Source: an uncultured bacterium
Lineage (GTDB): Bacteria; Krumholzibacteriota; Krumholzibacteriia; JACNKJ01
Direction: 5' to 3'
Assembly: GCA_963695095.1 (NCBI GenBank)
Contig: CAVOFT010000001.1
Span: 1,216,001-1,280,000 of the forward strand
DNA: 64,000 nt
The notes below the pieces were generated by a model. It saw nothing but the letters and a program-made list of their open reading frames with translations. It was not told where the DNA came from and searched no databases. This document shows positions 26,964-48,472 of the stretch, in pieces. The translations under genes and the position numbers were made by a program. Within the stretch, counting starts at the first letter, position 1. The number at the start of each line of letters is the position of its first letter.

Positions 26964-27628
26964 ACAAGGTGGAACGGACGATCAATGTCGTCACCAGCGT
27001 GCTCAAGGCCAACGACGCCGTGGCGCGGGCCAATCGCGCGCGCCTGGATGCGGCCGGCGTGCTGGCCCTGAACATCACCAGCGCGCCGGGCAGCGGCAAG
27101 ACGGCCCTGCTCGAGGCCACGCTGCCGGCCCTGGCGCCCCTGCGGGTGGCGGTGATCGTGGGCGACCTGCAGACCACGCGCGACGCCGAGCGCCTGCGGT
27201 CGCTGGCTGTCGCCGTCACCCAGATCAACACCGAGGGCGGCTGCCACCTGGCCGCCACCCAGGTGGCCGAGGCCCTGGACGGCCTGCCGCTGGACGCCCT
27301 GGACCTGCTCTTCATCGAGAACGTCGGCAACATGGTCTGCCCGGCCGGCTTCGACCTCGGCGAGCACCGGCGGGTGGCCATGCTCTCGGTGCCGGAGGGG
27401 GCGGACAAGGTGGCCAAGTACCCGACGCTTTTTCAGCCGGCCGACCTGATCCTGCTGAACAAGATCGATCTGGCGCCGCTCTTGGACTACGATGTGGAGC
27501 TGGTGCGGACCGACCTGGCCCAGATCAACACGCGAGCGCCGCTCGTCCTGCTCTCCGCTCGCAGCGGCGAAGGGCTGGCGGGCTGGCTGGACTGGTTGCG
27601 CGCGGAGCTGGCGGCCCGGCGGGGCTGA
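26960..27628 (+). CDS. hypB: Hydrogenase nickel incorporation GTPase HypB
   Basis: PGSGKT, GCHL, ENVGNMVCPA and NKID motifs. Confidence 0.96.
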   Translation: MNKVERTINVVTSVLKANDAVARANRARLDAAGVLALNITSAPGSGKTALLEATLPALAPLRVAVIVGDLQTTRDAERLRSLAVAVTQINTEGGCHLAATQVAEALDGLPLDALDLLFIENVGNMVCPAGFDLGEHRRVAMLSVPEGADKVAKYPTLFQPADLILLNKIDLAPLLDYDVELVRTDLAQINTRAPLVLLSARSGEGLAGWLDWLRAELAARRG

Positions 27629-27656
27629 GTCCGGGCAGCGGCTGGGAAGGAGGGGG

Positions 27657-29790: not shown

Positions 29791-30438
29791 ATGCGCGAGC
29801 GAAGCGGGCAGTGGTTGAGCGCAAAGGCCATCGGCCGGCTCAGCCTGTATCGGCGGATGCTGCAGGTGCTCGAACTGCACGGCGTGGAGGCCGTCTTCTC
29901 CCACGAGCTGGCCACGCTGGCCGGCACCACGCCCTCGCAGGTGCGGCGGGACCTGATGAGCGTCGAGAGTCTGGGCACACCCAGCCAGGGCTACCCTGTG
30001 CTGGCGACGAGCCAGGCGATCGCATCGCTCCTGATCGGCGAGGCGAAGCAGCGCGTCATCCTCGTCGGCGTCGGCAGTCTGGGCCGCGCGGTTCTGCACT
30101 ATTTCCAGCGCAATCATCCGCACCTCGAACTGGCGGCCGTCTTCGACAGCGACCCCGCGAAGGTGGGTCGCCAGATCGACGGCACGCTCGTCCACGGCAT
30201 CGCCGAGCTGGCAAGCCTGGTGGCGGAGCTTCAGGTGCGCACGGCCATCCTCACGCTCACCGCCGAGGGCGCGCAGGAGACGGCCGATCGACTTGTCAGC
30301 TGCGGCATCGTCAGCATGCTGAATTTCACTAACGTCAGGCTGCGTGTCCGCGAGGGCGTCTACGTGGAGAACACGGACATCGGCATCGCTCTCGAGCGTG
30401 TGGCCTATTACGGGCAACGGGCGGCAGAGGAGGACTAA
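29791..30438 (+). CDS. rex: Redox-sensing transcriptional repressor Rex
   Basis: RLSLYRR and SQVRRDL winged helix, G....GY wing, Rossmann motif GVGSLG and LNF. Confidence 0.93.
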   Translation: MRERSGQWLSAKAIGRLSLYRRMLQVLELHGVEAVFSHELATLAGTTPSQVRRDLMSVESLGTPSQGYPVLATSQAIASLLIGEAKQRVILVGVGSLGRAVLHYFQRNHPHLELAAVFDSDPAKVGRQIDGTLVHGIAELASLVAELQVRTAILTLTAEGAQETADRLVSCGIVSMLNFTNVRLRVREGVYVENTDIGIALERVAYYGQRAAEED

Positions 30439-30441
30439 CGC

Positions 30442-30930
30442 ATGAGCGCCACGGTCGAGAGCATTCTGGCCCGGCACCGGGACGCAGGGCGCGAGGCCCT
30501 GATCCCGCTGCTCCAGGAGCTGCAGGAAGTGGAGGGGTTCATCTCGGAGGCGGCGGTGATGGCCATCGGCCAGCACCTGCACTTGCCGGCCAGCAAGATC
30601 TACGGGGTGGCCACCTTCTACAACCAGTTCCGCTTCCAGCCGCGCGGCCGCTACCACGTCATGGTCTGCCGGGGCACGGCTTGCCACGTGAAGAACTCCG
30701 CCCGCGTGCTGGATACCGTCCGCCGCGTGCTCAAGCTCGAGCCGGGGCAGACCTCGCGCGACCGGCTCTTCAGCCTCGAGGTCGTCGCCTGCATGGGCGC
30801 CTGCGGCCTGTCGCCGGTGATCAACATCAACGGCGAGTTCTACGCCAAGGTGACGCCGCGCAAAGTGGAGCAGATCATCGAGGAGTGCCGGTGCGAAGTG
30901 CGCGCAGACGAGGAGGCGACCCATGTCTAA
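30442..30930 (+). CDS. hydC: NuoE-like [2Fe-2S] subunit of multimeric [FeFe]-hydrogenase (HydC/HndA)
   Basis: YGVATFYNQF, CRGTAC and CMGAC.LSP motifs. Confidence 0.9.
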   Translation: MSATVESILARHRDAGREALIPLLQELQEVEGFISEAAVMAIGQHLHLPASKIYGVATFYNQFRFQPRGRYHVMVCRGTACHVKNSARVLDTVRRVLKLEPGQTSRDRLFSLEVVACMGACGLSPVININGEFYAKVTPRKVEQIIEECRCEVRADEEATHV

Positions 30931-33900
30931 GTTCCCGCAGGGCGCCGTCCCCAGCGCCACGATCGGCTGCTGGCAGCCGCCGACCGCGCCCCGTTCCGGG
31001 CTGCTGGCTGCGCTCAAGGCGGGGCCCTTTTCCCGCGTCGACGGAGGCCGGCCGGGTACGGCCGAGCTCATCGCCCGCCTGCGCCGGGAGCGCCTGGAGC
31101 GCCCGGCCATCTTCGTCGGCGCCGGCACCTGCGGCCTCGGCGCGGGCGCCGAGAAGACCATTGGCGCCATCCAGACCTGGCTGGCCGAGACGGGCCAGGC
31201 GGCGGACCTGGTCCGCGTGGGCTGTATCGGCCTCTGCTCGGAGGAGCCCATCGTCGACATCCAGCTGCCGGGGCGCGCGCGCGTCAGCTTCGGCCCCGTC
31301 ATGGCCGACGGCGTTCCCGCCCTGCTCGACGCGGTGATCGCGCAGGGCAGGATCCCGACCGCTGGCCGGCTGGGGCAGTTCGAGGCCGCAGGCCTCGCGC
31401 CCTGGGCGGAGGTGCCCCGCCTGGCCGACCACCCCTTCCTGCGCCTGCAGAAACGCTGGGTGCTGGCCGGCAGCGGCATCATCGAGCCCGACAACATCGA
31501 CGAGTACATCGCGCGCGGCGGCTACTCGGCGGCCTACACGACGCTGCGCGAGCTCGATCCGGATACGGTCTGCGACATCGTCGAGCGCAGCGGCCTGCGC
31601 GGCCGCGGTGGCGGCGGCTTTCCGACCGGCCGCAAGTGGAAGCTGGCCCGCGCCGCCGGCGGCGAGCACAAGTACCTGATCTGCAACGCGGACGAAGGCG
31701 ATCCAGGCGCTTTCATGGACCGGGCGGTCTGCGAGAGCGACCCACACCGCCTGCTCGAGGGCATTCTCATCGCGGCCTATGGGATCGGCGCCGAGGAGGC
31801 GGTCATCTACATTCGCGCCGAGTACCCTCTGGCCGTGCAGCGCCTGCGCGACGCGATCGCCCGGGCTGAGGTCTATGGCCTCCTCGGTGAGCGCATCCTC
31901 GGCAGCGACTACTCGCTCAAGGTCAAGATCAAGATGGGCGCCGGCGCCTTCGTCTGCGGCGAGGAGACAGCTCTCATCCACAGCATCGAGGGCAAGCGGG
32001 GCATGCCGCGCCCCCGCCCGCCCTATCCCGCGGCGCAGGGCCTCTTCGGCCGGCCGACGATCATCAACAACGTGGAGACGCTGGCGAACCTGTCGACGGT
32101 GATGAGCTTGGGTTGGGAGGGCTTCAGCGCCGTGGGCACCGAAGGCAGCAAGGGCACCAAGGTCTACGCGCTCTCGGGCATGGTCGCGCGCACCGGCCTG
32201 GTCGAGGTGCCGATGGGGACCCCGATCCGCGACGTCGTCTTCACGGTGGGCGGCGGCGTGCCCGGCGGCCGACGCTGCAAGGCCGTGCAGATCGGCGGGC
32301 CCTCCGGCGGCTGCATTCCCGAGGCGCACCTGGACCTGCCCACGGACTACGAAGCGCTCAAGAAGTTCGGCGCCATCATGGGTTCAGGCGGCCTGGTTGT
32401 CATGGACGAGAACACCTGCATGGTAGACCTCGCCAAGTACTTCATGGAATTCATCCAGAGCGAGAGCTGCGGCAAGTGCATCCCATGTCGCGAGGGCACG
32501 CGGCGCATGCTGGAGATCCTGCAAGCGATCACGCGGTCCTACCAGCGCGAGAGCGAGAACGAGGCTCTGCTGCGCTTCCAGGGCATCATGCAGCTGCAGC
32601 AGCTCGCCCGCGTGATCAAGGATGCGTCGCTGTGCGGACTCGGCCAGACGGCGCCCAACCCCGTGCTCAGTACCCTGCGCTGGTTCCGCGACGAGTACGA
32701 GGCGCACATCTACGAGCGGCGCTGCCCGGCCGGCTCATGCCGCGATCTCGTCGGTGCCCCCTGCCAGACAGGCTGCCCGGTGGGCACGGAGGTCTGGCGC
32801 TACGTGGCGCACGTCGCCCGCGGCGAGAACGAGGAGGCCTACCGCGTCATCCGGCGGGCGAACCCTTTCCCCTCGGTCTGCGCGCGGGTCTGCCACCATC
32901 CCTGCGAGGCGGTCTGCCGCGCGGGGACCACGGGCGGCGACCCCGTCGCCGTGCGGACGCTGAAGCGCTACGTCGTCGAGCGCGTCGATCCGCGCGCCTA
33001 CACGGCGTCGGTCAAGCCGGCCGCCACGGACGCGCCGCACATCGCCGTGATCGGTGCCGGGCCGGCGGGCCTGACGGCGGCCCACCTGCTCAGCGCCCAG
33101 GGGATGCGGGTGACGATATTCGAGCAGGAGAAGCGGCTAGGCGGCATGCTGACCAGCGCCATCCCGGCCTACCGCCTGCCGCGGGACATCCTGGACCGCG
33201 AAATCGAGGCGCTCCTCAACGAGAACATCGCGCTGCGCCTGGACAGCGCCCTCGGCCGTGACTTCACGGTCGACGGCCTGCTGGCGGAGGGATTCAAGGC
33301 GGTCTACCTGGCCATTGGCGCCCACCAGAGCCTCAGCCTGGGTGTGCCCGGCGAGGACGTGGCGGGCGTGGTGCCCGGCATCCGCTTTCTGAAGGCCTAC
33401 AACCTGGACGGGATGTGCATGGCCAAGGGGCGGGTGGGAGTGATCGGCGGCGGCAATTCCGCCATCGACGCCGCTCGCGCCGCGCGGCGCATGCCCGAGG
33501 TCACTGCGGTGACCGTCTTCTACCGCCGCAGCCGCGAGGAGATGCCCGCCTACGCCGAGGAGATCGAGGCGGCGCTGGCCGAGGGCGTGGCCATCGAGCC
33601 GCTGACGGCGCCGGAGTCGGTGCTGTCCGCCGAGGGGCAGCTGACCGGCATGCGCTTTCTGCACACGGTGCTCGGCGAGCCGGATGCCAGCGGCCGCCGG
33701 CGCCCGGAGCCGGTGCTCGGCTCGGAGTTCGACGTGGCCCTCGACACCGTCATCGTCGCGATCAGCGAGCGGCCGGCCGTGGCCGCGCTCGCCGGTCTCG
33801 AGATGACGCGCTGGGGGGCGCCGCACATCAACGAGGAGTCCGGTGCCACCAGCCGCGCGGGCGTCTTCGCCGGCGGCGACGTGACCACGGGGCCAGGCAC

Positions 33901-34192
33901 GGTGATCGGCGCCATCGCTGCCGGCAAGCGCGCGGCCTTGATGATCGGCCGCTACGTGCAGGGCAAGCAGCTGCGCGTACTGCCGCGCATCGCGCTGCCC
34001 GACGTCTACCTGGCGCCGGTCGGCGAGGGCGATGAGACCGAGAGCGGCGAGCGCGTGCACGCGCCGCTGGCGCCGGTCGCCGCGCGCGTCTGCGGATTCG
34101 GCGAGGTCGAGCTGTGCATCGACGACGCCCAGGCCCATCGCGAAGCCAGGCGCTGCCTGCGTTGCGATCTCGAATTCACCCAGCCCAAGTGA
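30923..34192 (+). CDS. hydB: NuoF-like flavoprotein (HydB/HndC) fused to a C-terminal GltD-like FAD/NAD(P)H domain
   Basis: Thioredoxin-like 2Fe-2S N-terminus, GLRGRGGGGF, NADEGDPGAFMDR, GEETAL and ESCGKCIPCREG; then CQTGCP, CARVCHHPCE, GAGPAG, GGGNSAID, YRRS and RCLRC. Confidence 0.9.
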   Translation: MSKFPQGAVPSATIGCWQPPTAPRSGLLAALKAGPFSRVDGGRPGTAELIARLRRERLERPAIFVGAGTCGLGAGAEKTIGAIQTWLAETGQAADLVRVGCIGLCSEEPIVDIQLPGRARVSFGPVMADGVPALLDAVIAQGRIPTAGRLGQFEAAGLAPWAEVPRLADHPFLRLQKRWVLAGSGIIEPDNIDEYIARGGYSAAYTTLRELDPDTVCDIVERSGLRGRGGGGFPTGRKWKLARAAGGEHKYLICNADEGDPGAFMDRAVCESDPHRLLEGILIAAYGIGAEEAVIYIRAEYPLAVQRLRDAIARAEVYGLLGERILGSDYSLKVKIKMGAGAFVCGEETALIHSIEGKRGMPRPRPPYPAAQGLFGRPTIINNVETLANLSTVMSLGWEGFSAVGTEGSKGTKVYALSGMVARTGLVEVPMGTPIRDVVFTVGGGVPGGRRCKAVQIGGPSGGCIPEAHLDLPTDYEALKKFGAIMGSGGLVVMDENTCMVDLAKYFMEFIQSESCGKCIPCREGTRRMLEILQAITRSYQRESENEALLRFQGIMQLQQLARVIKDASLCGLGQTAPNPVLSTLRWFRDEYEAHIYERRCPAGSCRDLVGAPCQTGCPVGTEVWRYVAHVARGENEEAYRVIRRANPFPSVCARVCHHPCEAVCRAGTTGGDPVAVRTLKRYVVERVDPRAYTASVKPAATDAPHIAVIGAGPAGLTAAHLLSAQGMRVTIFEQEKRLGGMLTSAIPAYRLPRDILDREIEALLNENIALRLDSALGRDFTVDGLLAEGFKAVYLAIGAHQSLSLGVPGEDVAGVVPGIRFLKAYNLDGMCMAKGRVGVIGGGNSAIDAARAARRMPEVTAVTVFYRRSREEMPAYAEEIEAALAEGVAIEPLTAPESVLSAEGQLTGMRFLHTVLGEPDASGRRRPEPVLGSEFDVALDTVIVAISERPAVAALAGLEMTRWGAPHINEESGATSRAGVFAGGDVTTGPGTVIGAIAAGKRAALMIGRYVQGKQLRVLPRIALPDVYLAPVGEGDETESGERVHAPLAPVAARVCGFGEVELCIDDAQAHREARRCLRCDLEFTQPK

Positions 34193-34223: not shown

Positions 34224-35948
34224 ATGGTGACGATCGAAGTGAATGGCGACAGGATGGAGGCCACCCCGGGCGAGACCATCCTCTCGGCCCTGGCGCGGGC
34301 TGGCGTCTCGGTGCCGACGCTCTGCCACGTCGAGGGACTCAGCCCCACGGGGGCTTGTCGGGTGTGCGTCGTCGAAGTGGAGGGCATGGCTGGCCTGGTG
34401 CCGTCCTGCTCCTACCCCGTGGCCGAGGGCATGCGCATCAAGACGCATTCCTCGCGGGCTCTGGAGGCGCGGCGGACGATCATGCAGCTCCTGCTCGCCA
34501 ACCACCCTGACGATTGTCTCTACTGCGTGCGCGGCGGCAACTGCGAGCTGCAGCAGCTCGCCCGCGAGCTGGGGGTGGATCAGCGCCTCTATCGCGGGCA
34601 GCGTTCGCACCACGAAGCGGACGTCTCCGGGCCCAGCATCATCCGGGACCCGGACAAGTGCATCCTCTGCGGCAAATGCATCCGGATCTGCGAGGAGGTG
34701 CAGGGCGTCTCGGCAATCGATTTTCTGCGCCGCGGCAGCAGCACTTTCGTTGGCACCGCCTTCGACCGCGGCCTCGCCAACTCGGTCTGCGTCAACTGCG
34801 GCCAGTGCATCAACGTCTGCCCAACCGGGGCGCTGCGCGAGTACTCCTACATCGCCGAGGTCGAGGCGGCCCTGCGCGATCCCCAGCGGCTGGTGGTCGT
34901 GCAGCATGCGCCGGCGGTCTCGGTAAGCCTGGCGGAGGAGTTCGGCATGAAGCCCGGTACCGACGTCGACGGCGTCATGGTCGCCGCCCTGCGCCGGATC
35001 GGCTTCGACCGCGTCTTCGACACCTCCTTCACGGCCGACCTCACCATCATGGAGGAGGCTTCCGAACTCGCGCATCGCGTTGCCGCGGGCGGCGTGCTGC
35101 CGATGTTCACGAGCTGCTCGCCTGGCTGGATCTCCTTCCTCGAGGAGTTCTATCCGGAGTTCATACCCAATCTCTCGAGCTGCAAGAGCCCGCAGCAGAT
35201 GATGGGAGCTCTCGTCAAGTCGTTCTACGCCGAGCGGATGGCGGTGGAGGCAGCCTCGATCACGAGCGTCTCGATCATGCCTTGCACGGCCAAGAAGTAC
35301 GAGGCCAAGCGCGAGGAGATGAGTCGCGACTTCCTGCCCGACGTGGACTACGTCCTCACCACCCGCGAGCTGGGCCGGCTCATCCGCCGGCACGGCATCG
35401 ATCTGCACGCTCTCAAGCCCGAGGAGGCGGACACTCCCTTCGGCGAGCGCACAGGCGCCGGCAAGATCTTCGGCGCCAGTGGCGGCGTCATGGAGGCCGC
35501 CGTGCGCACGGCCCACTGGCTGCTGACCGGCAAGGACATGAAGGATCCCGTCGTCTGGCCCCTGCGCGGATTGGAAGGCGCGAAATCCCTGCACGTCAAG
35601 GTCGGCGACCTGGACGTGGGGGCGGCGGTCGTCAACGGGCTGGGCAATGCGCGCAAGCTGCTCGACGAGCTGAAGGCGGGCAAGCACCCGGACCTGCACT
35701 TCATCGAGTTCATGTGCTGCCCGGGTGGCTGCATCGGTGGCGGCGGGCAGCCCCTAGGCACCGATCGGGCGCGGTTGACCGCGCGCATGCAGTCACTCTA
35801 TCAGATCGACTCCGACGAGTCCAAGCGCGCTAGCCACTACAATGCGCAGGTGCAGCGGCTGTACGACGAGTATCTGGGTAAGCCGCTGGGTGAGAAGAGC
35901 CATCAGCTCCTCCACACCAAGTATCGCCGTCGCGAGATCCTGCTCTAG
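34224..35948 (+). CDS. hydA: [FeFe]-hydrogenase catalytic subunit, group A multimeric type
   Basis: 2Fe-2S, His-ligated 4Fe-4S (HPDDCLYC) and 2x4Fe-4S; H-cluster motifs TSCSPGW, MPCTAKKYE and EFMCCPGGCIGGGGQP. Confidence 0.95.
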   Translation: MVTIEVNGDRMEATPGETILSALARAGVSVPTLCHVEGLSPTGACRVCVVEVEGMAGLVPSCSYPVAEGMRIKTHSSRALEARRTIMQLLLANHPDDCLYCVRGGNCELQQLARELGVDQRLYRGQRSHHEADVSGPSIIRDPDKCILCGKCIRICEEVQGVSAIDFLRRGSSTFVGTAFDRGLANSVCVNCGQCINVCPTGALREYSYIAEVEAALRDPQRLVVVQHAPAVSVSLAEEFGMKPGTDVDGVMVAALRRIGFDRVFDTSFTADLTIMEEASELAHRVAAGGVLPMFTSCSPGWISFLEEFYPEFIPNLSSCKSPQQMMGALVKSFYAERMAVEAASITSVSIMPCTAKKYEAKREEMSRDFLPDVDYVLTTRELGRLIRRHGIDLHALKPEEADTPFGERTGAGKIFGASGGVMEAAVRTAHWLLTGKDMKDPVVWPLRGLEGAKSLHVKVGDLDVGAAVVNGLGNARKLLDELKAGKHPDLHFIEFMCCPGGCIGGGGQPLGTDRARLTARMQSLYQIDSDESKRASHYNAQVQRLYDEYLGKPLGEKSHQLLHTKYRRREILL

Positions 35949-35957
35949 GAGGTCGGC

Positions 35958-37985
35958 ATGCGCGCATCGGTGCTGCTGCCCCTGGTGACCACGAACGCGG
36001 ACCGCTGCCGGCTTTGCTACACCTGTGTACGCGAGTGTCCTTCACACGCCATCCGCATCAGCAACGGACGGGCCGAGGTGCTCCGGGAGCGCTGCATCGG
36101 CTGCGGCAATTGCGTGCGTGTCTGCAGCCAGGGCGCCAAGCAGGTGCGAGACGACATCCCGAAGGTGCAGGCCCTGCTGGACAGTCCCGTGCCCGTGGCG
36201 GCCTTGGTCGCACCCAGCTTCGCGGCCGAATTCGCCGAGCTGGATCTGGCCTATTTCATCGGCATGCTGCGGGCGATCGGCTTCCGGTGGGTGGTGGAAG
36301 TGGCGTTCGGCGCCGATCTCGTCGCCGATCGCTACCGGCGCCTGCGGGATGCCGAGCCCGGCAGCCGCAACATCGCGACCACCTGCCCCGCGCTGGTCTC
36401 CTATGTCGAGAAGTACCACCCGGAGCTGATCGGCAACCTGGCGCCGATCGTCTCACCGATGGTGGCCACCGCCCGCGCGCTCTCGCGCATCTACGAAGAA
36501 CCGCTGCGCAAGGTCTTCATCGGCCCCTGCATCGCCAAGAAGCGCGAAATCGAAACACCCGCGCTGGCGAAAGATGTAGATGCCGTGCTCACTTTCAGCG
36601 AACTCCGCGACATGTTCCACTACGCGGGCGTGAAGCCGGAATCCGCCCTGCCCATGCGATTCGACCCGCCCTATGCGGGCCTCGGCGCCCTATTCGCGAT
36701 CAGCCGTGGCTTGCTCAAGGCGGCTGACCTGGAGGAGGACTTGCTCGCCGGGGACATCGTCGTCGCCGACGGCAAGCAGAGCTTCCCGGAAGCCCTGCGC
36801 GAGTTCGAACTGGGGTCGCTCGACTCGCAGCTCCTGGAGATCCTCTGCTGCAACGGCTGCATCATGGGCTCCGGCATGACCAGCAACGCCCCGCTCTTCC
36901 GCCGGCGGGCCGCCGTCAGCCGCTACGCGCGCGAGCGTCTGGGCGAACTGAACATCGGCCGCTGGCAGTTGGCAATGCGCGAGATGGAGGGCCTGCCGCT
37001 TGCCCGAGAATATACCGAAGACGACCTGCGCGTGCCGATGCCGTCGGAGAGCACGCTCAAAGTGCTGCTCGAGGAGATGGGCAAGCCGACGCCGGCGGAT
37101 GAACTCAATTGCGGCGCCTGCGGCTACAACACCTGCCGGGAGCATGCCACCGCGGTCTTCCTGGGGTTGGCCGAATCGGCAATGTGCCTACCGCACACCA
37201 TCGAGCGGCTGCGGGTAACCGTGCACGAGCTGGCGGAATCGCACCAGCAGCTCACGGACGCCCAGCAGGCGCTGATGCAATCGGAGCGGCTGGCCAGCAT
37301 GGGCCAGCTTGCCGCCGGCATCGCCCACGAGGTCAACAACCCGCTCGGGGTCGTGCTGCTCTATGCGCACATGCTGATGGACTCCCTGGATCCGGCCTCT
37401 GAGCTGCACGCCGACATGCAGACGATCGTCGAGGAGGCGGATCGCTGCAAGACGATCGTCTCCGGGCTGCTCAACTTCGCGCGCAAGAATCGCGTCACGC
37501 TGCGCTCCTGCGATCTCACCCAGCTCGTGGACCACTTCCTCAGCGTCGTGCAGCCGCCGCCGGGGATGAACCTGCGCTGCCAGCACGCTGTGCGACCCTT
37601 GCCGGCGGAGGTCGATGCCGACCAGCTCACGCAGGTGCTCACGAATCTCGTCAACAACGCGATCGCCGCCATGCCGGATGGCGGCACGCTTACCGTGGGC
37701 ACGCACGGGGACGCCGACGAGGTTTGCCTGGTCGTCGCCGACAGCGGCACCGGCATTCCCGAGGAGCACCGCAGCAAGATCTTCGAGCCCTTCTTCACGA
37801 CGAAACAGATGGGCATGGGCACCGGCCTCGGCCTGGCGGTGACCTACGGCATCATCAAGATGCACCGCGGCCGCATCGACGTGCGCTCGAACACGGATGC
37901 CGCCGCGGGCCCGACCGGAAGCATCTTCACCATCAGTCTGCCCCGGCGGGGGCAGGACGAGGAAACCATGAGCGAGGCAATATGA
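35958..37985 (+). CDS. Putative sensory [FeFe]-hydrogenase (group C-like) fused to a histidine kinase
   Basis: 2x4Fe-4S; divergent H-cluster motifs [14 protein letters not shown] and [22 protein letters not shown]e-S domain; [14 protein letters not shown] and GTGLGL kinase motifs. Confidence 0.88.
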
Positions 37986-38383: not shown

Positions 38384-39553
38384 ATGGAACACCTGCGGGT
38401 GCTGGTCGTCGACGATGAACCGCGGATGCGCATGGGCATCCTGCGTGCGCTGCGCGGTCACGTCAGCGTCATGCCCGATCTGGACGGCGAGGTCGACTAC
38501 GTGGTCGTCGAAGCGGATTCCGGTGAAGCGGCGCTGGCCTGCATCGGCGAAGCCGAGCCGGACATCATGCTTCTGGACCACAAGCTGCCTGGCATCCAGG
38601 GCCTCGAGCTGCTTGACAAGCTGACCCGCGAGGGCCCTCGCCTGCTGACGGTGATGATCACCGCCTATGCGTCGATCGAGACGGCGGTGACGGCCACGAA
38701 GCGCGGCGCCTACGATTTTCTCGCCAAGCCCTTCACGCCGGCCGAGCTCGGCGCCACGATCGACAAGGCGGCCCGCCACGTGCTGCTCGACCGCCGGGCC
38801 CGCAAGCTGGCGCTGGAGCGCCGCCAGGCCCGCTTCCAGCTGATCTCGGTGGTGGCGCACGAACTCAAGTCTCCCCTGGCCGCCATCGAGGGTTACCTGC
38901 AGCTCCTGCAGGACCCCGCCACCGGCGAGAACGCCGAAACACGCGGGCACATGCTCGATCGCAGCGTGTTGCGCCTGCAGGGGATGCGCAAGCTCATCTT
39001 CGATCTGCTGGATCTGACCCGCATCGAATCCGGGCAGAAGAAGCGCGAGCTGGCTCCCATCGATCTCGGCGAGCTGGCGGCGCAGGCGCTGGCCGGCGTG
39101 CGCAGCGAAGCCGAGCCGCGGCGCATCGCGCTGCGCCTGGCGACCACGGGGGATCTGCAGATGCAGGGCGACCGCGGCGAGCTGGAGATTATCCTGAACA
39201 ACCTCGTCTCGAATGCGGTCAAGTACAACCGCGACGGTGGCGAGGTGGAGGTCACGCTGCAGGGGGATGCCGAGCGGCTCACGATTGCCGTACGCGACAC
39301 GGGCATTGGCATCAGCGAAGACGAGCAGGCCAAGCTCTTCGGCGAGTTCAGCCGCATCAAGAACGCGCAGACGCGCAATATCCTGGGCAGCGGTCTGGGG
39401 CTCAGCATCGTGCGCCGGCTGGCGCGCCTCAGTGGAGGTGACGCGGGTGTGGTCAGTGCGCCTGGCGTCGGCAGCACGTTCACGGTGACGCTCGCCCGCT
39501 GCGGCAGCGACGAGATGCCGCCGGCCGCGGTCGACGTGGGGTTCGAGACATGA
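38384..39553 (+). CDS. Hybrid receiver-histidine kinase
   Basis: VLVVDDE...LLDHKLP...KPF receiver; AHELKSPL, NAVKY, DTGIG and GSGLGL. Confidence 0.9.
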   Translation: MEHLRVLVVDDEPRMRMGILRALRGHVSVMPDLDGEVDYVVVEADSGEAALACIGEAEPDIMLLDHKLPGIQGLELLDKLTREGPRLLTVMITAYASIETAVTATKRGAYDFLAKPFTPAELGATIDKAARHVLLDRRARKLALERRQARFQLISVVAHELKSPLAAIEGYLQLLQDPATGENAETRGHMLDRSVLRLQGMRKLIFDLLDLTRIESGQKKRELAPIDLGELAAQALAGVRSEAEPRRIALRLATTGDLQMQGDRGELEIILNNLVSNAVKYNRDGGEVEVTLQGDAERLTIAVRDTGIGISEDEQAKLFGEFSRIKNAQTRNILGSGLGLSIVRRLARLSGGDAGVVSAPGVGSTFTVTLARCGSDEMPPAAVDVGFET

Positions 39554-40653
39554 CGACCGCGGCCGGCCGCCGCCCCAGCCGCGGCGAGATCCTGGACTGG
39601 CTGCACGAAACGGATCACGAGCGCTTGAAGGGGCTCTGGCAGGCCGCCGACAGCCTGCGCCGCCGCCAGGTGGGGGAGGCGATCTGGCTGCGCGGGCTGA
39701 TCGAGATCGCCAATCGCTGCGTGCGCAACTGCGCCTACTGCGGCATCCGAGCCGGCAACCACGCGCTCAGGCGCTATCGCATGACCGGGGCGGAGATCCT
39801 GGCCTGCGCGCGACTGGCCCAGGCTCAGGAGCTGGGTACCGTCGTCCTCCAGTCCGGGGAGGATCCCGGGCTGTCGGCGCCGTGGCTGGCCTCCGTGGTG
39901 CGGGCGATCCGGGCCGAGACCGGGCTCGTCGTCACCCTCAGTCTCGGCGATCGGGACGACGCGGCCTTCGCGCTCTGGCGCGAGGCAGGCGCGGCGCGTT
40001 ATCTCCTCCGCTTCGAGACGGCCAATCCCGAGCTCTACGCCCAGCTCCACCCCGGAGCGCCGCCGCTCGCGGATCGACTCTCGCGGCTGGAGCGCTTGCG
40101 GGCCCTCGGCTACCAGATGGGCACGGGTTTCCTGGTCGGCGTACCTGGGCAAACCTACGCCGATCTGGCCGACGATCTCGAGCTGCTGGCGGACCTCGCC
40201 CCCGACATGATCGGCCTCGGCCCCTGGCTGCCCCACCCGGCAACGCCTCTGGGGCAGGCCGCCGACGCCGCGCGGGGCGCGGTGCCGCGGGCCGAGCAAG
40301 TGCCGGGAACAGCCCTGATGGCCTGCAAGGCCCTGGCGCTGGCGCGGCTGCTCTGCCCGGGGACGAACATCCCCAGCACCACGGCCCTGTCGGTGGCCGA
40401 CCCGGCGGCAGGACGCAGCGATGGGTTGACGCGCGGCGCCAACGTCGTCATGCCCAACCTGACGCCGCGGCGTTACCGGCGGCTCTACGAGATCTATCCG
40501 GGCAAGGGGCTGCCGGGTCCCGAGTCCGGCGAGCAACTGGCGCGATTGCGGCGACAACTCGTCGCCCTCGATCGCGCGATCGGCAGCGGGCCGGGCGATC
40601 CCCCGATCTGCGCCGAGCGGCAGCGGCCTGGCCGGCCGAGGAGCGAATCATGA
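39550..40653 (+). CDS. hydE: [FeFe]-hydrogenase H-cluster radical SAM maturase HydE
   Basis: CVRNCAYC, LQSGED and GANVVMPNLTP...YEIYPGK. Confidence 0.93.
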   Translation: MTTAAGRRPSRGEILDWLHETDHERLKGLWQAADSLRRRQVGEAIWLRGLIEIANRCVRNCAYCGIRAGNHALRRYRMTGAEILACARLAQAQELGTVVLQSGEDPGLSAPWLASVVRAIRAETGLVVTLSLGDRDDAAFALWREAGAARYLLRFETANPELYAQLHPGAPPLADRLSRLERLRALGYQMGTGFLVGVPGQTYADLADDLELLADLAPDMIGLGPWLPHPATPLGQAADAARGAVPRAEQVPGTALMACKALALARLLCPGTNIPSTTALSVADPAAGRSDGLTRGANVVMPNLTPRRYRRLYEIYPGKGLPGPESGEQLARLRRQLVALDRAIGSGPGDPPICAERQRPGRPRSES

Positions 40654-42047
40654 TCCGACCCGACAGCAGCTTGGTCGACGAGGAACGCATCTGGGCAACC
40701 CTGGCCGCAGCGGGGCCGGCCGACGCCCGCCGGATCCGCGAGGTGCTGGCACGCGCGCGCGAACTGGCCGGCCTGGCCGCCGCCGATGTGGCCGCCCTGG
40801 CCGGGATCAGCGATCCGGAACTGCTGGGCGAGTTGTTCGAGACGGCCCGAGCCGTGAAGGAGGAGATCTACGGCCGCCGGCTGGTGCTCTTCGCGCCCCT
40901 GTACGTCTCCAATCTCTGCGGCAACGATTGCGCCTACTGCGCCTTCCGGGCCAGCAACCGCGAGATCCAGCGGCGGGCGCTGACCCAGATGGAGATCGCG
41001 CAGGAGACGCGCGTCCTCGTGGAGCAGGGCCACAAGCGGGTGCTGCTGGTGGCCGGCGAGTCCTACCCGCGCGAGGGCTTCGATTACATCCTGCGGGCCA
41101 TCGACACGGTCTATGCCACGAAGTGCGGCGGGGGCGAGATCCGCCGCATCAACGTCAATGTGGCCCCCCTGAGCGAGCTGGAGTTCCGCCGGCTGGGGGA
41201 GCGCCGCATCGGCACCTACCAGCTATTCCAGGAGACTTACCACCACGAGACCTACCGGACCGTGCACCCGCGCGGGCGCAAGGCCGACTACGACTGGCGC
41301 CTCAGCGCCATCGACCGCGCCTTCGCCGCCGGCATCGACGATGTCGGCATCGGCGTGCTCTTCGGGCTCTTCGACTGGCGCTTCGAGCTGCTCGCGCTGC
41401 TGCAGCACATCAGCTACCTGGAAGCGCGCTTCGGCGTGGGTCCGCACACGATCAGCGTGCCGCGTCTGGAGCCGGCCACGGGCTCCGACATGGCCAGCCA
41501 CCCGCCGCGCCCCGTCTCCGACCTCGATTTCCGCAAGCTGGTCGCCATCCTCCGCCTGGCCGTGCCCTACACGGGGATCATCCTGTCCACGCGCGAGTCG
41601 GCGGCGCTGCGCCGGGAGACCTTTGCGCTCGGCGTCTCCCAGATCTCGGCCGGCAGCCGCACGAACCCGGGCGGCTACGCCGATGGCGCCGACGAGGAGG
41701 GCGCCGGCCAGTTCTGCCTGGGCGATCACCGGTCTCTGGACGAGGTGATCCGCGACCTTGCCCAGCTCGGCTACGTGCCCTCCTTCTGCACGGCCTGCTA
41801 TCGGCTGGGGCGGACGGGGGCAGACTTCATGGATCTGGCCAAGCCGGGGGCGATCAAGGAACACTGCGCGCCCAACGCTCTCGCCACCTTCCAGGAGTAC
41901 CTGGCTGATTACGCCTCGCCCGCGACGCGCATCCTCGGCGAGGTCTGCGTTCACGAACATCTGGCCGACATGGGTCCGGCCTCCCGCCAGCGGGCGGAAT
42001 CCATGCTCGCCCGCGTGCGCGGGGGCGAGCGCGACGTCTACTGCTGA
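40650..42047 (+). CDS. hydG: [FeFe]-hydrogenase H-cluster radical SAM maturase HydG
   Basis: FAPLYVSNLCGNDCAYC, FQETYH and C-terminal SFCTACYR...HC auxiliary cluster motif. Confidence 0.95.
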   Translation: MIRPDSSLVDEERIWATLAAAGPADARRIREVLARARELAGLAAADVAALAGISDPELLGELFETARAVKEEIYGRRLVLFAPLYVSNLCGNDCAYCAFRASNREIQRRALTQMEIAQETRVLVEQGHKRVLLVAGESYPREGFDYILRAIDTVYATKCGGGEIRRINVNVAPLSELEFRRLGERRIGTYQLFQETYHHETYRTVHPRGRKADYDWRLSAIDRAFAAGIDDVGIGVLFGLFDWRFELLALLQHISYLEARFGVGPHTISVPRLEPATGSDMASHPPRPVSDLDFRKLVAILRLAVPYTGIILSTRESAALRRETFALGVSQISAGSRTNPGGYADGADEEGAGQFCLGDHRSLDEVIRDLAQLGYVPSFCTACYRLGRTGADFMDLAKPGAIKEHCAPNALATFQEYLADYASPATRILGEVCVHEHLADMGPASRQRAESMLARVRGGERDVYC

Positions 42048-42056
42048 GGTGGGGCC

Positions 42057-43469
42057 GTGAACGAACGCCGAGAACGGGACGCCCTGGGCGAACTTGCCGG
42101 CCCGGCCGCTGACCTCGCGGGCGTCCACACCTGGCGGGCGGAGGCGAACTTCGACGTCGCCGGTCGCCCCGTGCGGCCCGCCCTCGTCGAGGCCTACGGA
42201 CTCGTCAAGCAGGCGGCGATCCGCACGCTGCGCGAGCTGGGCCACTGGGCCGAGGCACCGGCCAAGGCCGCGGCGATGGAGCAGGCCTGCGCCGAGATGG
42301 CCGTGGGCACGCTTACCGTCCACGTTCGCGTGGACGCCCTGCAGGGCGGCGCCGGCACCAGCACCAACATGAACGTCAACGAGGTGCTGGCCAATCGCGC
42401 CCTGCAGTTGCTCGGCGCCGTGCCCGGGGATCATGTCCAGGTGTCGCCGCTGAGGGATCTCAACCGGCAGCAGTCCACCAACGACACCTATCCCACCGCA
42501 CTGCGCGTGGCCGCCTTGCGCGGTTTGATCGCGCTTGAGCAGGCGGTGCTCGCGCTCCAGGAGGCCTTCCAGGTCAAGGAGCGCGAACTGGCCGATGTGG
42601 TCAAGGTCGGCCGGACCCAGCTTCAGGACGCCGTGCTCGTCACCTTGGGCCGCGAGATGGGCGCCTACGCCGAGGCGATCGGGCGGGACCGCTGGCGCCT
42701 CTACAAGGCCCGGGAGCGGTTGCGCATCATCAACCTGGGCGGTACAGCGGTGGGTACGGGTCTGGGTGCCGAACGTGAATACATCTTTCGCGTCGTCGAC
42801 ACCCTGCGTGCGCTTTCCGGCCTGCCCCTCGCCCGGGCGGAGAACCTGATCGACGCTACGCAGAACGCCGATCTCTTCGCCGAGGTGAGTGGCCTGCTCA
42901 AGTGCCTGGCCGTCAACCTGATCAAGATTGGCAACGACCTGCGCCTCCTGGCCTCGGGCCCCGAGGCGGGCCTGGGCGAACTGCGCCTGCCCGCGCGGCA
43001 GGAGGGCTCGACGATCATGCCCGGCAAGGTGAACCCCGTGATCCCCGAGGCGGCCGTGCAGGCCGGCCTGCGCTGTCTGGGCGCCGACCTCGCGATCACC
43101 CAGGCCTGTGCGCTGGGCAGCCTCGAGCTCAATCCCTTCCTGCCCCTGGTGGCGGACGAGCTGCTGGGCACGATCGGGGAGCTGACCCGCGCCTGCACAC
43201 TGCTGCGCCTGCACTGCATCGAGGGTCTGAGCGCGGACCGCGAGCGCTGCCGGATGCAGGTGGAAGGTAGCACGGCGGCGGCGACCGCGATCGCCGCCCG
43301 GCTCGGCCACGCCGAGGCGGCTCGCCTGGCGGCGCAGGCGACGGCGGCGGGCCGTCCCCTGCGGGCACTCGTCGTCGAGGCGGGCCTGCTCAGCGATGCC
43401 GAGTTCAGTGCGCTGATCGCGCCTGCGGCCGTCACGCGCCTCGGCCAGCCGGACGGGGAGGGGCCATGA
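42057..43469 (+). CDS. aspA: Aspartate ammonia-lyase
   Basis: QGGAGTSTNMN, QSTNDTYPTA, GRTQLQDA (aspartase type) and GSTIMPGKVNP. Confidence 0.88.
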   Translation: MNERRERDALGELAGPAADLAGVHTWRAEANFDVAGRPVRPALVEAYGLVKQAAIRTLRELGHWAEAPAKAAAMEQACAEMAVGTLTVHVRVDALQGGAGTSTNMNVNEVLANRALQLLGAVPGDHVQVSPLRDLNRQQSTNDTYPTALRVAALRGLIALEQAVLALQEAFQVKERELADVVKVGRTQLQDAVLVTLGREMGAYAEAIGRDRWRLYKARERLRIINLGGTAVGTGLGAEREYIFRVVDTLRALSGLPLARAENLIDATQNADLFAEVSGLLKCLAVNLIKIGNDLRLLASGPEAGLGELRLPARQEGSTIMPGKVNPVIPEAAVQAGLRCLGADLAITQACALGSLELNPFLPLVADELLGTIGELTRACTLLRLHCIEGLSADRERCRMQVEGSTAAATAIAARLGHAEAARLAAQATAAGRPLRALVVEAGLLSDAEFSALIAPAAVTRLGQPDGEGP

Positions 43470-47150: not shown

Positions 47151-47163
47151 GGTCGTCTCCTCC

Positions 47164-47718: not shown

Positions 47719-47730
47719 GGTCGTCTCTCC

Positions 47731-48459: not shown

Positions 48460-48472
48460 CGTGGCTGCCCTC

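What the first reader, a model, noticed from the sequence alone, without database searches (positions are those of the whole stretch)
30923..34192. HydB whose ferredoxin-type C-terminus is replaced by a GltD/NfnB-like NADPH flavoprotein domain
Seen: the 1089-aa subunit has the NuoF core with GDPGAFMDR (HoxF here has GEPGTFKDR) and the C..G.C site. In place of the usual C-terminal 2x[4Fe-4S] ferredoxin domain it has a full GltD-like module (Cys cluster motifs, GAGPAG, GGGNSAID, YRR). Known: in HydABC the C-terminal clusters of HydB pass electrons to ferredoxin, and YRR-type motifs favour NADP(H) in GltD proteins. Inference: a two-flavin hydrogenase coupling H2, NADH and NADPH rather than ferredoxin.
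Basis: partly seen in the sequence, partly recalled or inferred. Interest (0 to 1): 0.7.

Follow-up and report, generated by a model that had tools for sequence, protein, structure and literature searches.

The report
Hydrogenase flavoprotein fused to NADPH module
This three-subunit iron-only hydrogenase has a flavoprotein subunit that carries an NADPH/FAD module where relatives have their ferredoxin-binding end; the design is real and common in uncultured anaerobes, was noted in a 2024 genomics paper, and has never been tested at the bench.

Summary
ORF 30923-34192 (+) encodes a 1089-aa protein with a complete HydB/NuoF core. After the conserved H..CPxxC hinge motif comes a GltD/NfnB-type module (two [4Fe-4S] sites, FAD, NAD(P)H site with YRR) instead of the 2x[4Fe-4S] ferredoxin domain. 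It lies in a rex-hydC-hydB-hydA-hydS(kinase) operon.

It is not an assembly join: the two halves share one reading frame in 79 of 80 related genomes, and a full hydA follows in 62 of 67.

The architecture is already in print as "sub-type I BfuB" (Zheng & Huang 2024, PMC11406978). This scan has also met it on other DNA. I found no biochemistry for it.

It is not the glutamate-liganded bifurcating NfnB type. It starts 8 residues after the hinge, where the ferredoxin-reducing clusters normally sit.

The most likely function is an H2 : NAD(H) + NADP(H) enzyme, with NADP(H) taking ferredoxin's place (confidence about 0.5). Continued use of ferredoxin cannot be excluded. It is a new member of a known but uncharacterised kind.

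The parts
29791..30438 (+). rex (redox-sensing repressor), first gene of the cluster
   Evidence: Pfam Put_DNA-bind_N + CoA_binding. A Rex homologue lies directly upstream on the same strand in 48 of 66 related loci with room.
30442..30930 (+). hydC (NuoE/BfuC-like, [2Fe-2S] C1 cluster)
   Evidence: Pfam 2Fe-2S_thioredx 1.1e-48, profile 2-144/145. The CxxxxC...CxxxC cysteines (C76, C81, C117, C121) and an FRFQP linker are visible in the translation. It overlaps the hydB start by 8 nt.
30923..34192 (+). hydB-gltD fusion gene, 1089 aa (P0001)
   Evidence: The NuoF and GltD halves share one stop-to-stop frame in 79 of 80 related loci.
31100..31342 (+). N-terminal thioredoxin-like domain of HydB (B5 site), aa 60-140
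   Evidence: Aligns to the N-termini of Tsi NfnB, A. mobile HydB and StnB. C70, C101 and C105 are invariant in 107 of 107.
31580..32092 (+). FMN/NAD(H)-binding domain, aa 220-390
   Evidence: Pfam Complex1_51K. GRGGxGF and NADEGDPGAFMDR are conserved; the GDPGA core is invariant in 107 of 107. The motif is identical in NAD-binding NfnB, HydB and StnB.
32426..32707 (+). four-helix bundle with the B1 (N3-type) [4Fe-4S] site, aa 502-595
   Evidence: Pfam NADH_4Fe-4S. C516, C519, C522 and C571 are invariant.
32705..32740 (+). hinge motif H595...C601-P-A-G-S-C606 (B2/zinc-site position in solved Bfu enzymes)
   Evidence: Aligned to AHI..RCPAKxC of NfnB, HydB and StnB. H595, C601 and C606 are invariant in 107 of 107. 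The zinc assignment comes from PMC11829005 and was not tested here.
32735..32983 (+). GltD/DPD-II type Fe-S domain (two [4Fe-4S] sites), aa 605-687, with K681
   Evidence: Pfam Fer4_20. C614, C618, C653, C657, C661 and C665 are invariant. K681 is invariant in 107 of 107 and aligns with the Lys ligand K170 of StnC.
33038..33925 (+). FAD and NAD(P)H Rossmann domains, aa 706-1001
   Evidence: Pfam Pyr_redox_2. The glycines of GxGxxG at 711-716 are conserved in at least 106 of 107, and G842-G-G-N, Y867-R-R and R751 are invariant.
34142..34168 (+). C-terminal tail EARRCLRCD, which supplies the CxxC pair found at the N-terminus of classical GltD/NfnB (circular permutation)
   Evidence: It aligns with the end of the GltD insert of Csac NfnA and StnC, and with residues 17-43 of T. 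maritima NfnB. C1078 and C1081 are invariant in 107 of 107.
34224..35948 (+). hydA, [FeFe]-hydrogenase catalytic subunit, 574 aa
   Evidence: Pfam Fer2_4, NADH-G_4Fe-4S_3, Fer4, Fe_hyd_lg_C (2.3e-92) and Fe_hyd_SSU. The ATG at 34224 follows a gaggtg site. The H-cluster motifs TSCSPGW, MPCTAKK and CPGGCIGGGGQ are present. Best solved relatives are T. kivui HydA1 (607.5 bits) and A. woodii HydA1 (592.3 bits).
35958..37985 (+). hydS-like sensory hydrogenase fused to a histidine kinase
   Evidence: Pfam Fer4, Fe_hyd_lg_C (3.9e-43), FeS, HisKA and HATPase_c. A homologue follows hydA in 44 of 58 related loci with room.
38384..39553 (+). hybrid receiver-histidine kinase
   Evidence: Pfam Response_reg, HisKA and HATPase_c.
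39550..40653 (+). radical-SAM maturase (HydE-like; assignment inferred from context)
   Evidence: Pfam Radical_SAM 4.7e-17.
40650..42047 (+). probable hydG (start not determined)
   Evidence: A BATS domain hit lies at genome C1:1257454-1257774, which is window 41454-41774, in the frame of ORF 39882-42047.
43466..44719 (+). hydF maturase GTPase
   Evidence: Pfam HydF_tetramer, HydF_dimer and MMR_HSR1.

Best explanation
This is a HydABC-type (group A3, 'sub-type I BfuABC') [FeFe] hydrogenase. The flavoprotein subunit keeps the NAD(H)/FMN site, the B1 cluster, the hinge (B2) motif and the N-terminal domain. HydC keeps the C1 [2Fe-2S] cluster. The small ferredoxin-reducing C-terminal domain (clusters B3/B4) has been exchanged for a 480-residue NADP(H)/FAD module with two [4Fe-4S] clusters of its own. 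That module is of the Stn/NfnABC kind, which acts as a simple, non-bifurcating NADPH port. Proposed path: H-cluster, then the HydA clusters, then B1/FMN, where NAD+ is reduced by hydride transfer. The second branch leaves through the mobile C1 cluster of HydC, enters the two GltD clusters that occupy the B3/B4 position, and reaches FAD, where NADP+ is reduced. The net reaction is 2 H2 + NAD+ + NADP+ = NADH + NADPH + 2 H+, reversible, with NADP(H) (about -380 mV in cells) playing the low-potential role that ferredoxin plays in canonical enzymes. Shown: domain anatomy, cofactor motifs and their invariance, the type of the module, operon context and breadth. Inferred: NADP(H) specificity, the C1-to-GltD-cluster link, obligatory coupling, and direction in vivo.
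For: The module starts at C614, 8 residues after hinge Cys606, where the B3/B4 domain of solved HydB/NfnB/StnB begins.

For residues 598-1089 the best solved matches are the NADPH-port inserts of Bfu-type A subunits: Csac NfnA 9bov_A 319.5 bits, Tsi NfnA 9n5u_A 312.9, S. ovata StnC 8oh5_C 287.8. These rank ahead of bifurcating T. maritima NfnB at 257.1 and P. furiosus NfnL at 230.6.

The module shares their circular permutation. Its CxxC pair is at the C-terminal end (C1078/C1081) and the Pfam Fer4_20 match lacks profile positions 1-22. The genome's other GltD homologue matches positions 1-111.

K681 aligns with StnC K170 (Tsi NfnA K165), the lysine ligand of the FAD-proximal cluster that is conserved in all NfnABC enzymes. 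Bifurcating NfnB has glutamate there (papers read; alignment). K681 is invariant in 107 of 107.

GGGN and YRR of the GGGNSA...YRR site are invariant in 107 of 107 (S846 in 105), and the site matches four NADPH-dependent solved relatives.

The FMN-site motif is identical to NAD-binding NfnB, HydB and StnB. HydC has the four C1 cysteines and an FRFQP linker like the FRFEP linker mutated in Tsi NfnC.

[quoted passage not shown] The canonical ferredoxin site is therefore gone here.

Thermodynamics are workable. With the cellular potentials listed in PMC9304861 Table 1 (NAD -280, NADP -380, H2 -414 mV), my Nernst estimate puts equilibrium near 150 Pa H2, against about 3 Pa for NADH alone.

The genome also holds PntB, Rnf and 2-oxoacid:ferredoxin oxidoreductases, so ferredoxin can be recycled without the hydrogenase.
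Against: There is no biochemical or structural datum for any member of this family (searches found none).

The GltD Fe-S domain has two clusters, just as NfnB does, and in NfnB the distal one reduces ferredoxin. Ferredoxin could therefore still dock.

Unlike StnC and NfnA, this family keeps the full four-Cys motif CxxxCxxxCxxxC (C653 is extra), as NfnB and GltD do. The lysine signature is therefore not the whole picture.

The conserved Arg751 (equivalent to NfnB R201 and StnC R239) could support either flavin chemistry; only geometry decides.

This is the genome's only catalytic [FeFe] hydrogenase, in an organism that makes reduced ferredoxin, which would fit a ferredoxin-using enzyme.

The 100 mV gap between the NAD and NADP couples is small for a bifurcating machine.

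The AF2 monomer has pTM 0.62, and I could not read distances between domains from it.
Confidence: 0.5

Rival explanations
1. Ferredoxin is still a substrate. Either the FAD of the GltD module is a second, Nfn-type bifurcating centre (NADPH splits to ferredoxin and to the FMN/H-cluster side), or the module's distal [4Fe-4S] cluster simply replaces B4 as the ferredoxin docking site. The enzyme would then link four pools: H2, NAD, NADP and ferredoxin.
For: Zheng & Huang postulate a second FAD bifurcation centre for exactly this architecture (PMC11406978 section 7). Greening et al. place a 'likely ferredoxin' acceptor at the glutamate-synthase-like domain of an archaeal HydB (PMC11216029). The family keeps the four-Cys motif and Arg751, as NfnB does. 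The genome makes reduced ferredoxin and has no other catalytic [FeFe] hydrogenase.
Against: The proximal-cluster ligand is Lys (K681, 107 of 107), as in the non-bifurcating Stn/NfnABC modules, not Glu as in NfnB. In Tsi NfnA a K165E change nearly abolishes coupled activity. The module is permuted like the non-bifurcating ones. No NfnA/NfnS-type partner, which would provide the high-potential branch of Nfn, appears among the genes scanned by Pfam in 27492-52327. Rnf can oxidise ferredoxin instead.
Confidence: 0.3
2. The hydrogenase is uncoupled and has two entry ports. NADH at FMN and NAD(P)H at FAD each exchange electrons with the H-cluster independently, or the module serves a different partner or uses NADH. 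There is no energetic coupling between the two nucleotides.
For: Non-bifurcating NADH-dependent HydAB-type enzymes lack B2-B5 (PMC9304861), so loss of B3/B4 is a known route to non-bifurcating enzymes. Both couples have E0' of -320 mV. NADP(H) specificity rests on motif homology only.
Against: Unlike the non-bifurcating HydB proteins, this family keeps the N-terminal domain, the hinge motif and HydC with its linker, all invariant. The module begins 8 residues after the hinge, not near B1 or the HydA chain. An acidic residue after the second Rossmann strand, typical of NADH sites (recalled), is absent; the sequence is YRR.
Confidence: 0.15
3. The fusion is an artefact: an assembly join, or a frameshift that merges two genes.
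For: This genome has several genes split across frames: HoxF, HoxE, a POR and an Rnf subunit. Indel errors are therefore plausible.
Against: The same fusion sits in one frame in 79 of 80 related loci from more than ten phyla. Of the 120 best database relatives, 107 are 1040-1130 aa with both halves.
Confidence: 0.01

Closest known systems
'Sub-type I' BfuABC group A3 [FeFe] hydrogenase (Zheng & Huang 2024, mSystems, PMC11406978; sections 7-9 read as passages, section 7 part 1 in full)
   Same: The architecture is identical: the B3/B4 domain of BfuB is replaced by a DPD_II domain (two [4Fe-4S]) plus a C-terminal FAD/NAD(P)-binding domain. HydA is M3-type with Ser at the fifth position of motif P1. 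The cluster is associated with a sensory group C hydrogenase. Homologues were reported in Planctomycetota, Spirochaetota, Pseudomonadota, Verrucomicrobiota and Kiritimatiellota.
   Different: There is nothing structural to separate them; this window is another member. That paper gives no biochemistry and proposes a second bifurcating FAD. The lysine ligand and the permutation found here point instead to a non-bifurcating NADPH port.
StnABC / NfnABC (Nfn-Bfu) transhydrogenases: S. ovata 8oh5, C. saccharolyticus 9bov/9bp5, T. sibiricus 9n5u
   Same: They share the BC core. Tsi NfnB scores 622.2 bits and StnB 603.4 bits against residues 60-621 and 63-658. They have the same permuted, Lys-liganded, YRR-bearing GltD module (288-320 bits) and the same gene order: NuoE-like, NuoF-like, then the A subunit.
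   Different: There the module is inserted in the A subunit, after its N-terminal [2Fe-2S] domain, and feeds the mid-potential chain. The B subunit keeps B3/B4 and reduces ferredoxin, and the A subunit has no H-cluster. Here the module is on B in place of B3/B4, and A is a true hydrogenase. StnC and NfnA have three Cys where this family has four (C653).
Canonical electron-bifurcating HydABC (T. kivui 8a6t, A. woodii 7q4v, T. maritima 7p5h)
   Same: HydA is 607.5 and 592.3 bits to the T. kivui and A. woodii HydA1. HydB aligns up to the hinge. HydC is present. The TSCSPGW variant is shared with A. woodii.
   Different: It lacks the C-terminal 2x[4Fe-4S] ferredoxin domain that reduces ferredoxin, and it carries FAD and a second nucleotide site.
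NfnAB / NfnSL (T. maritima 4ylf, P. furiosus 5jca)
   Same: The GltD fold, two [4Fe-4S] clusters, FAD, the NADPH site and a conserved Arg next to the flavin are shared (257.1 and 230.6 bits).
   Different: NfnB has Glu rather than Lys as the cluster ligand, an N-terminal rather than C-terminal CxxC pair, and needs the NfnA/S partner. No such partner is in this operon.
Archaeal hybrid (group F) hydrogenase HydB with a glutamate-synthase-like domain (Greening et al. 2024, Cell, PMC11216029; passages read)
   Same: It is a NuoF-like HydB fused to a glutamate-synthase small-subunit-like domain in a hydrogenase complex.
   Different: It is an archaeal complex with both [NiFe] and [FeFe] modules. 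I did not compare sequences. The authors suggest ferredoxin as the acceptor at that domain.
HydDB group A2 'glutamate synthase-linked' [FeFe] hydrogenases (PMC5037454)
   Same: A GltD-type protein is encoded beside hydA.
   Different: The A2 rule requires GltD without NuoF in the neighbouring protein. Here NuoF is present, so the locus falls under A3.

Membership tests
Bfu (HydABC-type) family as defined by Schut et al. 2022 (PMC9304861) | BfuC with the C1 [2Fe-2S] cluster | tested here: met
   Pfam 2Fe-2S_thioredx 1.1e-48. C76, C81, C117 and C121 are present.
Bfu (HydABC-type) family as defined by Schut et al. 2022 (PMC9304861) | BfuB with the FMN/NAD(H) site and the B1 [4Fe-4S] cluster | tested here: met
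   Complex1_51K and NADH_4Fe-4S. GDPGAFMDR is conserved (F264 in 102 and D266 in 102 of 107, the rest invariant), and C516, C519, C522 and C571 are invariant in 107 of 107.
Bfu (HydABC-type) family as defined by Schut et al. 2022 (PMC9304861) | B2 site (3 Cys + 1 His; zinc in most structures) and the B5 N-terminal thioredoxin-like domain | tested here: inconclusive
   H595, C601, C606 and C70, C101, C105 are invariant and aligned with NfnB, HydB and StnB. The third B2 cysteine and the fourth B5 ligand were not assigned, and the metal cannot be known from sequence.
Bfu (HydABC-type) family as defined by Schut et al. 2022 (PMC9304861) | C-terminal ferredoxin-type domain with clusters B3 and B4 (the ferredoxin site) | tested here: not met
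   There is no Fer4 dicluster domain. Alignments to solved B subunits end at 610-621, and a Fer4_20/Pyr_redox_2 module follows.
Bfu (HydABC-type) family as defined by Schut et al. 2022 (PMC9304861) | BfuA carrying the third-substrate site (here the H-cluster) | tested here: met
   Fe_hyd_lg_C 2.3e-92 with motifs P1-P3.
Sub-type I BfuABC (Zheng & Huang 2024) | BfuB with DPD_II plus an FAD/NAD(P) domain in place of B3/B4 | tested here: met
   Fer4_20 at 605-687 and Pyr_redox_2 at 706-1001. The paper's description was read.
Sub-type I BfuABC (Zheng & Huang 2024) | M3a-type HydA with Ser at P1 position 5 | tested here: met
   The domains are Fer2_4, NADH-G_4Fe-4S_3, two Fer4, the H-domain and SSU. 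The motif is TSCSPGW. Placement in their phylogenetic cluster was not tested.
Stn/NfnABC-type NADPH-port module | Lys ligand to the FAD-proximal [4Fe-4S] cluster (StnC K170, Tsi NfnA K165) | tested here: met
   K681 aligns with StnC K170 (residue numbering checked against C114/Y117 of the paper). It is invariant in 107 of 107.
Stn/NfnABC-type NADPH-port module | [quoted passage not shown] | tested here: met
   The tail at 1074-1082 aligns with the end of the Csac NfnA and StnC inserts and with the N-terminus of T. maritima NfnB.
Stn/NfnABC-type NADPH-port module | Inserted in the A subunit, feeding the mid-potential chain | tested here: not met
   The module is at the C-terminus of the B subunit.
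NfnB/NfnL (bifurcating FAD subunit) | Glu ligand on the proximal cluster and an NfnA/NfnS partner | tested here: not met
   Lys stands at the aligned position. No NfnA-type protein is among the operon products scanned. The rest of the genome was not searched for NfnA.
NADP(H)-specific GltD-type nucleotide site | GxGxxA followed by YRR at the end of the second strand | tested here: met
   GGGNSA at 842-847 and YRR at 867-869; GGGN, A847 and YRR are invariant and S846 is in 105 of 107. The site is shared with four NADPH-dependent solved relatives. That the arginines bind the 2'-phosphate is recalled, not tested; actual specificity cannot be tested with these tools.
HydDB [FeFe] group A2 (glutamate synthase-linked) | Neighbouring protein has a GltD domain but not NuoF | tested here: not met
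   NuoF domains are present in the same protein. The rule was read.

The most novel reading that the evidence does not exclude
This family would be a ferredoxin-independent member of the Bfu class. The [B1-FMN-C1] bifurcation site would split electrons from H2 between the two pyridine-nucleotide pools, with NAD+ as the high-potential acceptor and NADP+ as the low-potential one, through a hard-wired FAD port. In reverse, NADPH would pull NADH oxidation to H2. It would be the first bifurcating enzyme whose low-potential partner is a two-electron hydride carrier rather than ferredoxin or flavodoxin. It would also mean that hundreds of sediment and soil anaerobes set their NADPH/NADH balance directly against ambient H2, with equilibrium near 100-150 Pa.
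Probability: 0.35. Interest if true: 0.75.

Novelty: new member of a known kind. Interest (0 to 1): 0.4.

Why it matters
The HydB-GltD design is not a curiosity. At least 558 species-level genomes from Planctomycetota, Acidobacteriota, Myxococcota, Lentisphaerota, Elusimicrobiota, Spirochaetota and other phyla carry a relative. In this genome it is the only catalytic [FeFe] hydrogenase.

Genome-based H2 budgets currently file such loci as ordinary ferredoxin/NAD bifurcating hydrogenases (group A3). If NADP(H) replaces ferredoxin, the H2 threshold, the direction of flux and the link to biosynthetic reductant in these organisms would differ from what those budgets assume.

The family is also a natural experiment on the disputed Bfu mechanism. 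The whole ferredoxin-reducing arm has been replaced by a flavin port, while the proposed flavobicluster and the mobile C1 subunit are kept.

For this scan the value is modest. The architecture has been in print since 2024 and was met before on other DNA.

Tried and rejected
1. Assembly join or frameshift fusion: rejected. The halves are in one frame in 79 of 80 relatives.

2. HydDB group A2 (glutamate synthase-linked): rejected. That rule excludes NuoF-containing neighbours.

3. The Ser in the H-cluster motif (TSCSPGW, 61 of 62 related HydA) as a special feature: rejected. The well-studied A. woodii HydA1 has the same motif, and Zheng & Huang note Ser as common.

4. An earlier description of the fusion in the Bfu classification paper (PMC9304861), the non-bifurcating HydB paper (PMC7311640) and the Nfn review (PMC6405883): term searches of the main texts found none. 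Their supplements were not opened.

5. One literature search gave 0 papers.

6. AF2 model of the monomer (mean pLDDT 84.0, pTM 0.62; the junction at 600-620 has pLDDT about 58-63). It shows both halves fold with confidence, but the tool gives no coordinates. I could not measure cluster-to-cluster distances and do not use it for the electron path. No fold search was run on it.

7. HydC + HydB-GltD + HydA is 1825 residues, above the 1000-residue limit of the complex tool. A cut-down HydC/GltD pair would model a transient state and would not have moved my odds.

8. Taxonomic placement of the window's genome: not pursued. The closest named relatives of the protein (65-72% identity) come from several phyla.

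Full report
**Observation**

ORF 30923-34192 (+) is open for 1089 codons from an ATG that overlaps the stop of the upstream gene by 8 nt. Pfam places these domains on it:
- Complex1_51K at 220-390
- SLBB at 415-462
- NADH_4Fe-4S at 502-595
- Fer4_20 (the two-cluster domain of GltD/DPD) at 605-687
- Pyr_redox_2 at 706-1001

No ferredoxin-type Fer4 dicluster domain is found. So is the GEPGTFKDR of a Hox-type NuoF on the minus strand at 49525-49551.

**Surroundings**

The gene sits in a co-directional cluster:
- a GAF histidine kinase (27492-29552)
- rex (29791-30438)
- hydC (30442-30930)
- hydB-gltD
- hydA (start 34224 behind a gaggtg site, 574 aa, H-cluster motifs present)
- a HydS-like sensory hydrogenase fused to a histidine kinase (35958-37985)
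- a receiver-kinase (38384-39553)
- a radical-SAM maturase
- a probable hydG
- an aspartase-like gene
- hydF

The genome is 3.64 Mb in 2 contigs and 93.5% complete. It has only two H-cluster domains, hydA and hydS.

**Anatomy of the fusion**

Against the sequences of solved structures, residues 60-621 match the B subunits of Bfu-type enzymes:
- T. sibiricus NfnB: 622.2 bits
- A. mobile HydB: 616.7 bits
- S. ovata StnB: 603.4 bits

The match includes the N-terminal thioredoxin-like domain (C70, C101, C105), the FMN motif ADEGDPGAFMDR (identical in all three) and the B1 cysteines. It also includes the hinge motif EAHIyeRRCPAGSC, which in the structures holds the B2 zinc (PMC11829005). The alignments stop where those proteins begin their B3/B4 ferredoxin domain.

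From C614, eight residues after hinge Cys606, the protein instead matches GltD-type modules.

**Type of module**

For residues 598-1089 the best solved matches are the NADPH-binding inserts of Bfu A subunits. They score above the bifurcating NfnB/NfnL and above true GltD:

| Solved chain | Bits |
|---|---|
| C. saccharolyticus NfnA (9bov_A) | 319.5 |
| T. sibiricus NfnA (9n5u_A) | 312.9 |
| S. ovata StnC (8oh5_C) | 287.8 |
| T. maritima NfnB | 257.1 |
| P. furiosus NfnL | 230.6 |
| GltD (2vdc_G) | 195.3 |

Two features tie the module to the Stn/NfnABC type.

First, it is circularly permuted. The EAxRCLxC segment that opens classical NfnB (residues 17-43 of 4ylf_B) is the last segment here (1074-1082). 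It aligns with the end of the StnC and Csac NfnA inserts. The Pfam Fer4_20 hit accordingly lacks profile positions 1-22, whereas the genome's other GltD homologue covers 1-111.

Second, K681 aligns with StnC K170. This is the lysine that ligates the FAD-proximal cluster. It is conserved in all NfnABC enzymes and is needed for coupled activity, and bifurcating NfnB has glutamate at the position (PMC10482914 sections 9 and 11; PMC12018979 passages).

One difference from StnC and NfnA is that this family keeps four cysteines in CxxxCxxxCxxxC (C653 is extra), as NfnB does.

**Conservation**

Identity to the query is 58-89%.

Invariant in 107 of 107:
- cysteines C70, C101, C105, C254, C345, C464, C499, C516, C519, C522, C571, C601, C606, C614, C618, C653, C657, C661, C665, C1078 and C1081
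- H595, K681 and R751
- G842-G-G-N, Y867-R-R and the GDPGA core of the FMN-site motif

Nearly invariant: the GxGxxG glycines (G716 in 106), S846 (105), F264 (102) and D266 (102).

That accounts for eight cysteines plus a lysine for the two module clusters.

**Breadth and synteny**

Of these, 558 were confirmed by tblastn and the best 80 were kept. They come from Planctomycetota, Acidobacteriota (Holophagaceae), Myxococcota and other 'delta' groups, Lentisphaerota/Victivallales, Elusimicrobia, Spirochaetales, Latescibacterota, Zixibacteria, Gemmatimonadota, Eisenbacteria, WOR-3 and Methylomirabilales.

In these 80 loci:
- The NuoF and GltD halves lie in one stop-to-stop frame in 79. L067 is the exception.
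- Of 67 loci with at least 1.8 kb downstream, 62 have a full hydA directly after. The other 5 have only a NuoG-like Fe-S protein without an H-domain.
- hydC is directly upstream in 66 of 68 by the script. The two misses, L008 and L027, have it overlapping the long open frame.
- rex is upstream in 48 of 66.
- The hydS-kinase follows hydA in 44 of 58.

The fusion is therefore a conserved gene, not an assembly artefact.

**What is known**

Zheng & Huang (2024, PMC11406978) describe exactly this B subunit as 'sub-type I BfuB' of group A3 hydrogenases in Hydrogenedentota. They note relatives in five other phyla and postulate a second, FAD-based bifurcation centre. They give no experiments.

Greening et al. 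(2024, PMC11216029) describe an archaeal hybrid hydrogenase whose HydB has a glutamate-synthase-like domain. They suggest ferredoxin as its acceptor.

The HydDB rule would file the locus under A3, not A2.

I found no mention of the fusion in main-text term searches of Schut 2022, Losey 2020 or Liang 2019. Six library searches found no biochemical study.

Earlier notes of this scan report the same architecture, and the same paper, on two other genomes.

**Mechanism**

In solved Bfu enzymes the bifurcation site is [B1-FMN-C1]. The C1 domain of the small subunit swings to B3/B4 in the C-terminal domain of B. Ferredoxin binds between those two C-terminal domains, and a B4 mutant loses coupling.

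Here everything up to the hinge is kept, and HydC keeps its cluster and an FRFQP linker. The B3/B4 domain is replaced by a module whose first cluster ligands follow the hinge by 8-12 residues. In its closest relatives that module is a plain NADPH-to-cluster wire.

The simplest reading is that the low-potential branch ends in FAD and NADP+ instead of ferredoxin: 2 H2 + NAD+ + NADP+ = NADH + NADPH + 2 H+.

I used the cellular potentials tabulated in PMC9304861 (NAD -280, NADP -380, H2 -414 mV) and about 30 mV per decade of H2. By my own estimate the reaction balances near 150 Pa H2, against about 3 Pa for NADH alone. NADPH could therefore pull NADH-driven H2 release at sediment H2 levels. In reverse, H2 could charge both pools.

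Rex control fits a redox-valve role. The genome also has Rnf, PntB and 2-oxoacid:ferredoxin oxidoreductases. Ferredoxin could therefore be drained through Rnf, and NADPH kept reduced by PntAB, without the hydrogenase touching ferredoxin. That routing is inference.

**What argues against this reading**

- Nothing has been measured for any member of the family.
- The module still has a surface-proximal distal cluster like NfnB, and it has the four-Cys motif.
- Arg751 is compatible with either flavin chemistry.
- This is the only catalytic [FeFe] hydrogenase in an organism that makes reduced ferredoxin.
- The AF2 monomer (pLDDT 84.0, pTM 0.62) does not fix the arrangement between domains.

I therefore put the ferredoxin-free NAD/NADP reading at about 0.5, a ferredoxin-using variant at 0.3, an uncoupled or other-partner variant at 0.15 and an artefact at 0.01.

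**Verdict**

The finding is real, correctly described and widespread, and it has been in print since 2024. It is a new member of a known but biochemically uncharacterised kind.

Noticed in passing
window 47731-50372, minus strand: A Hox-type diaphorase cluster is split across reading frames. The pieces are HoxE-like 2Fe-2S_thioredx, HoxF-like Complex1_51K/NADH_4Fe-4S carrying GEPGTFKDR at 49525-49551, and HoxU-like Fer2_4/Fer4_Nqo3. HoxF is in three pieces and HoxE in two. The ORFs checked downstream (45143-46975 and 47105-48247) gave no Pfam hit. The cause is either gene decay or indel errors; a POR and an Rnf subunit elsewhere in the genome are split in the same way.
   Followed up: partly
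window 35958-37985 and 38384-39553 (+); also 27492-29552 (+): A HydS-like sensory hydrogenase (Fer4, Fe_hyd_lg_C, FeS domain) is fused to HisKA/HATPase_c and followed by a receiver-histidine kinase hybrid. A GAF histidine kinase lies upstream of rex. No output domain was seen among the genes scanned. The sensor-kinase follows hydA in 44 of 58 related loci.
   Followed up: partly
L007, L021, L042, L046, L075 (about 8650-9230 in the first four, 4021-4560 in L075): In 5 of 67 related loci the NuoF-GltD fusion is followed by a protein that matches only the N-terminal Fe-S part of HydA (query residues 9-213/232), with no H-cluster domain. In these loci the NuoF half is 45-49% identical to the query. 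This is a non-hydrogenase sister family, from Gemmatimonadota, Latescibacterota, Zixibacteria and Methylomirabilales. Earlier scan notes describe such operons with a GltB-like partner.
   Followed up: no
window 42057-43469 (+): An aspartate ammonia-lyase/fumarase-class gene (Lyase_1, FumaraseC_C) sits between the probable hydG and hydF inside the maturase block.
   Followed up: no
window 34224-35948 (HydA residue in TSCSPGW); the 62 related loci with a full hydA: The cysteine usually found next to the H-cluster in motif P1 (TSCCP) is serine here and in 61 of 62 related HydA. The same holds for A. woodii HydA1 (7q4v_A), while T. kivui HydA1 has TSCCP.
   Followed up: yes
L067, L039, L019: In these relatives the open frame holding the GltD half is short (815, 889 and 752 codons), and the NuoF half is missing or only partly inside it. 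This suggests frameshifts or contig problems in those records.
   Followed up: no
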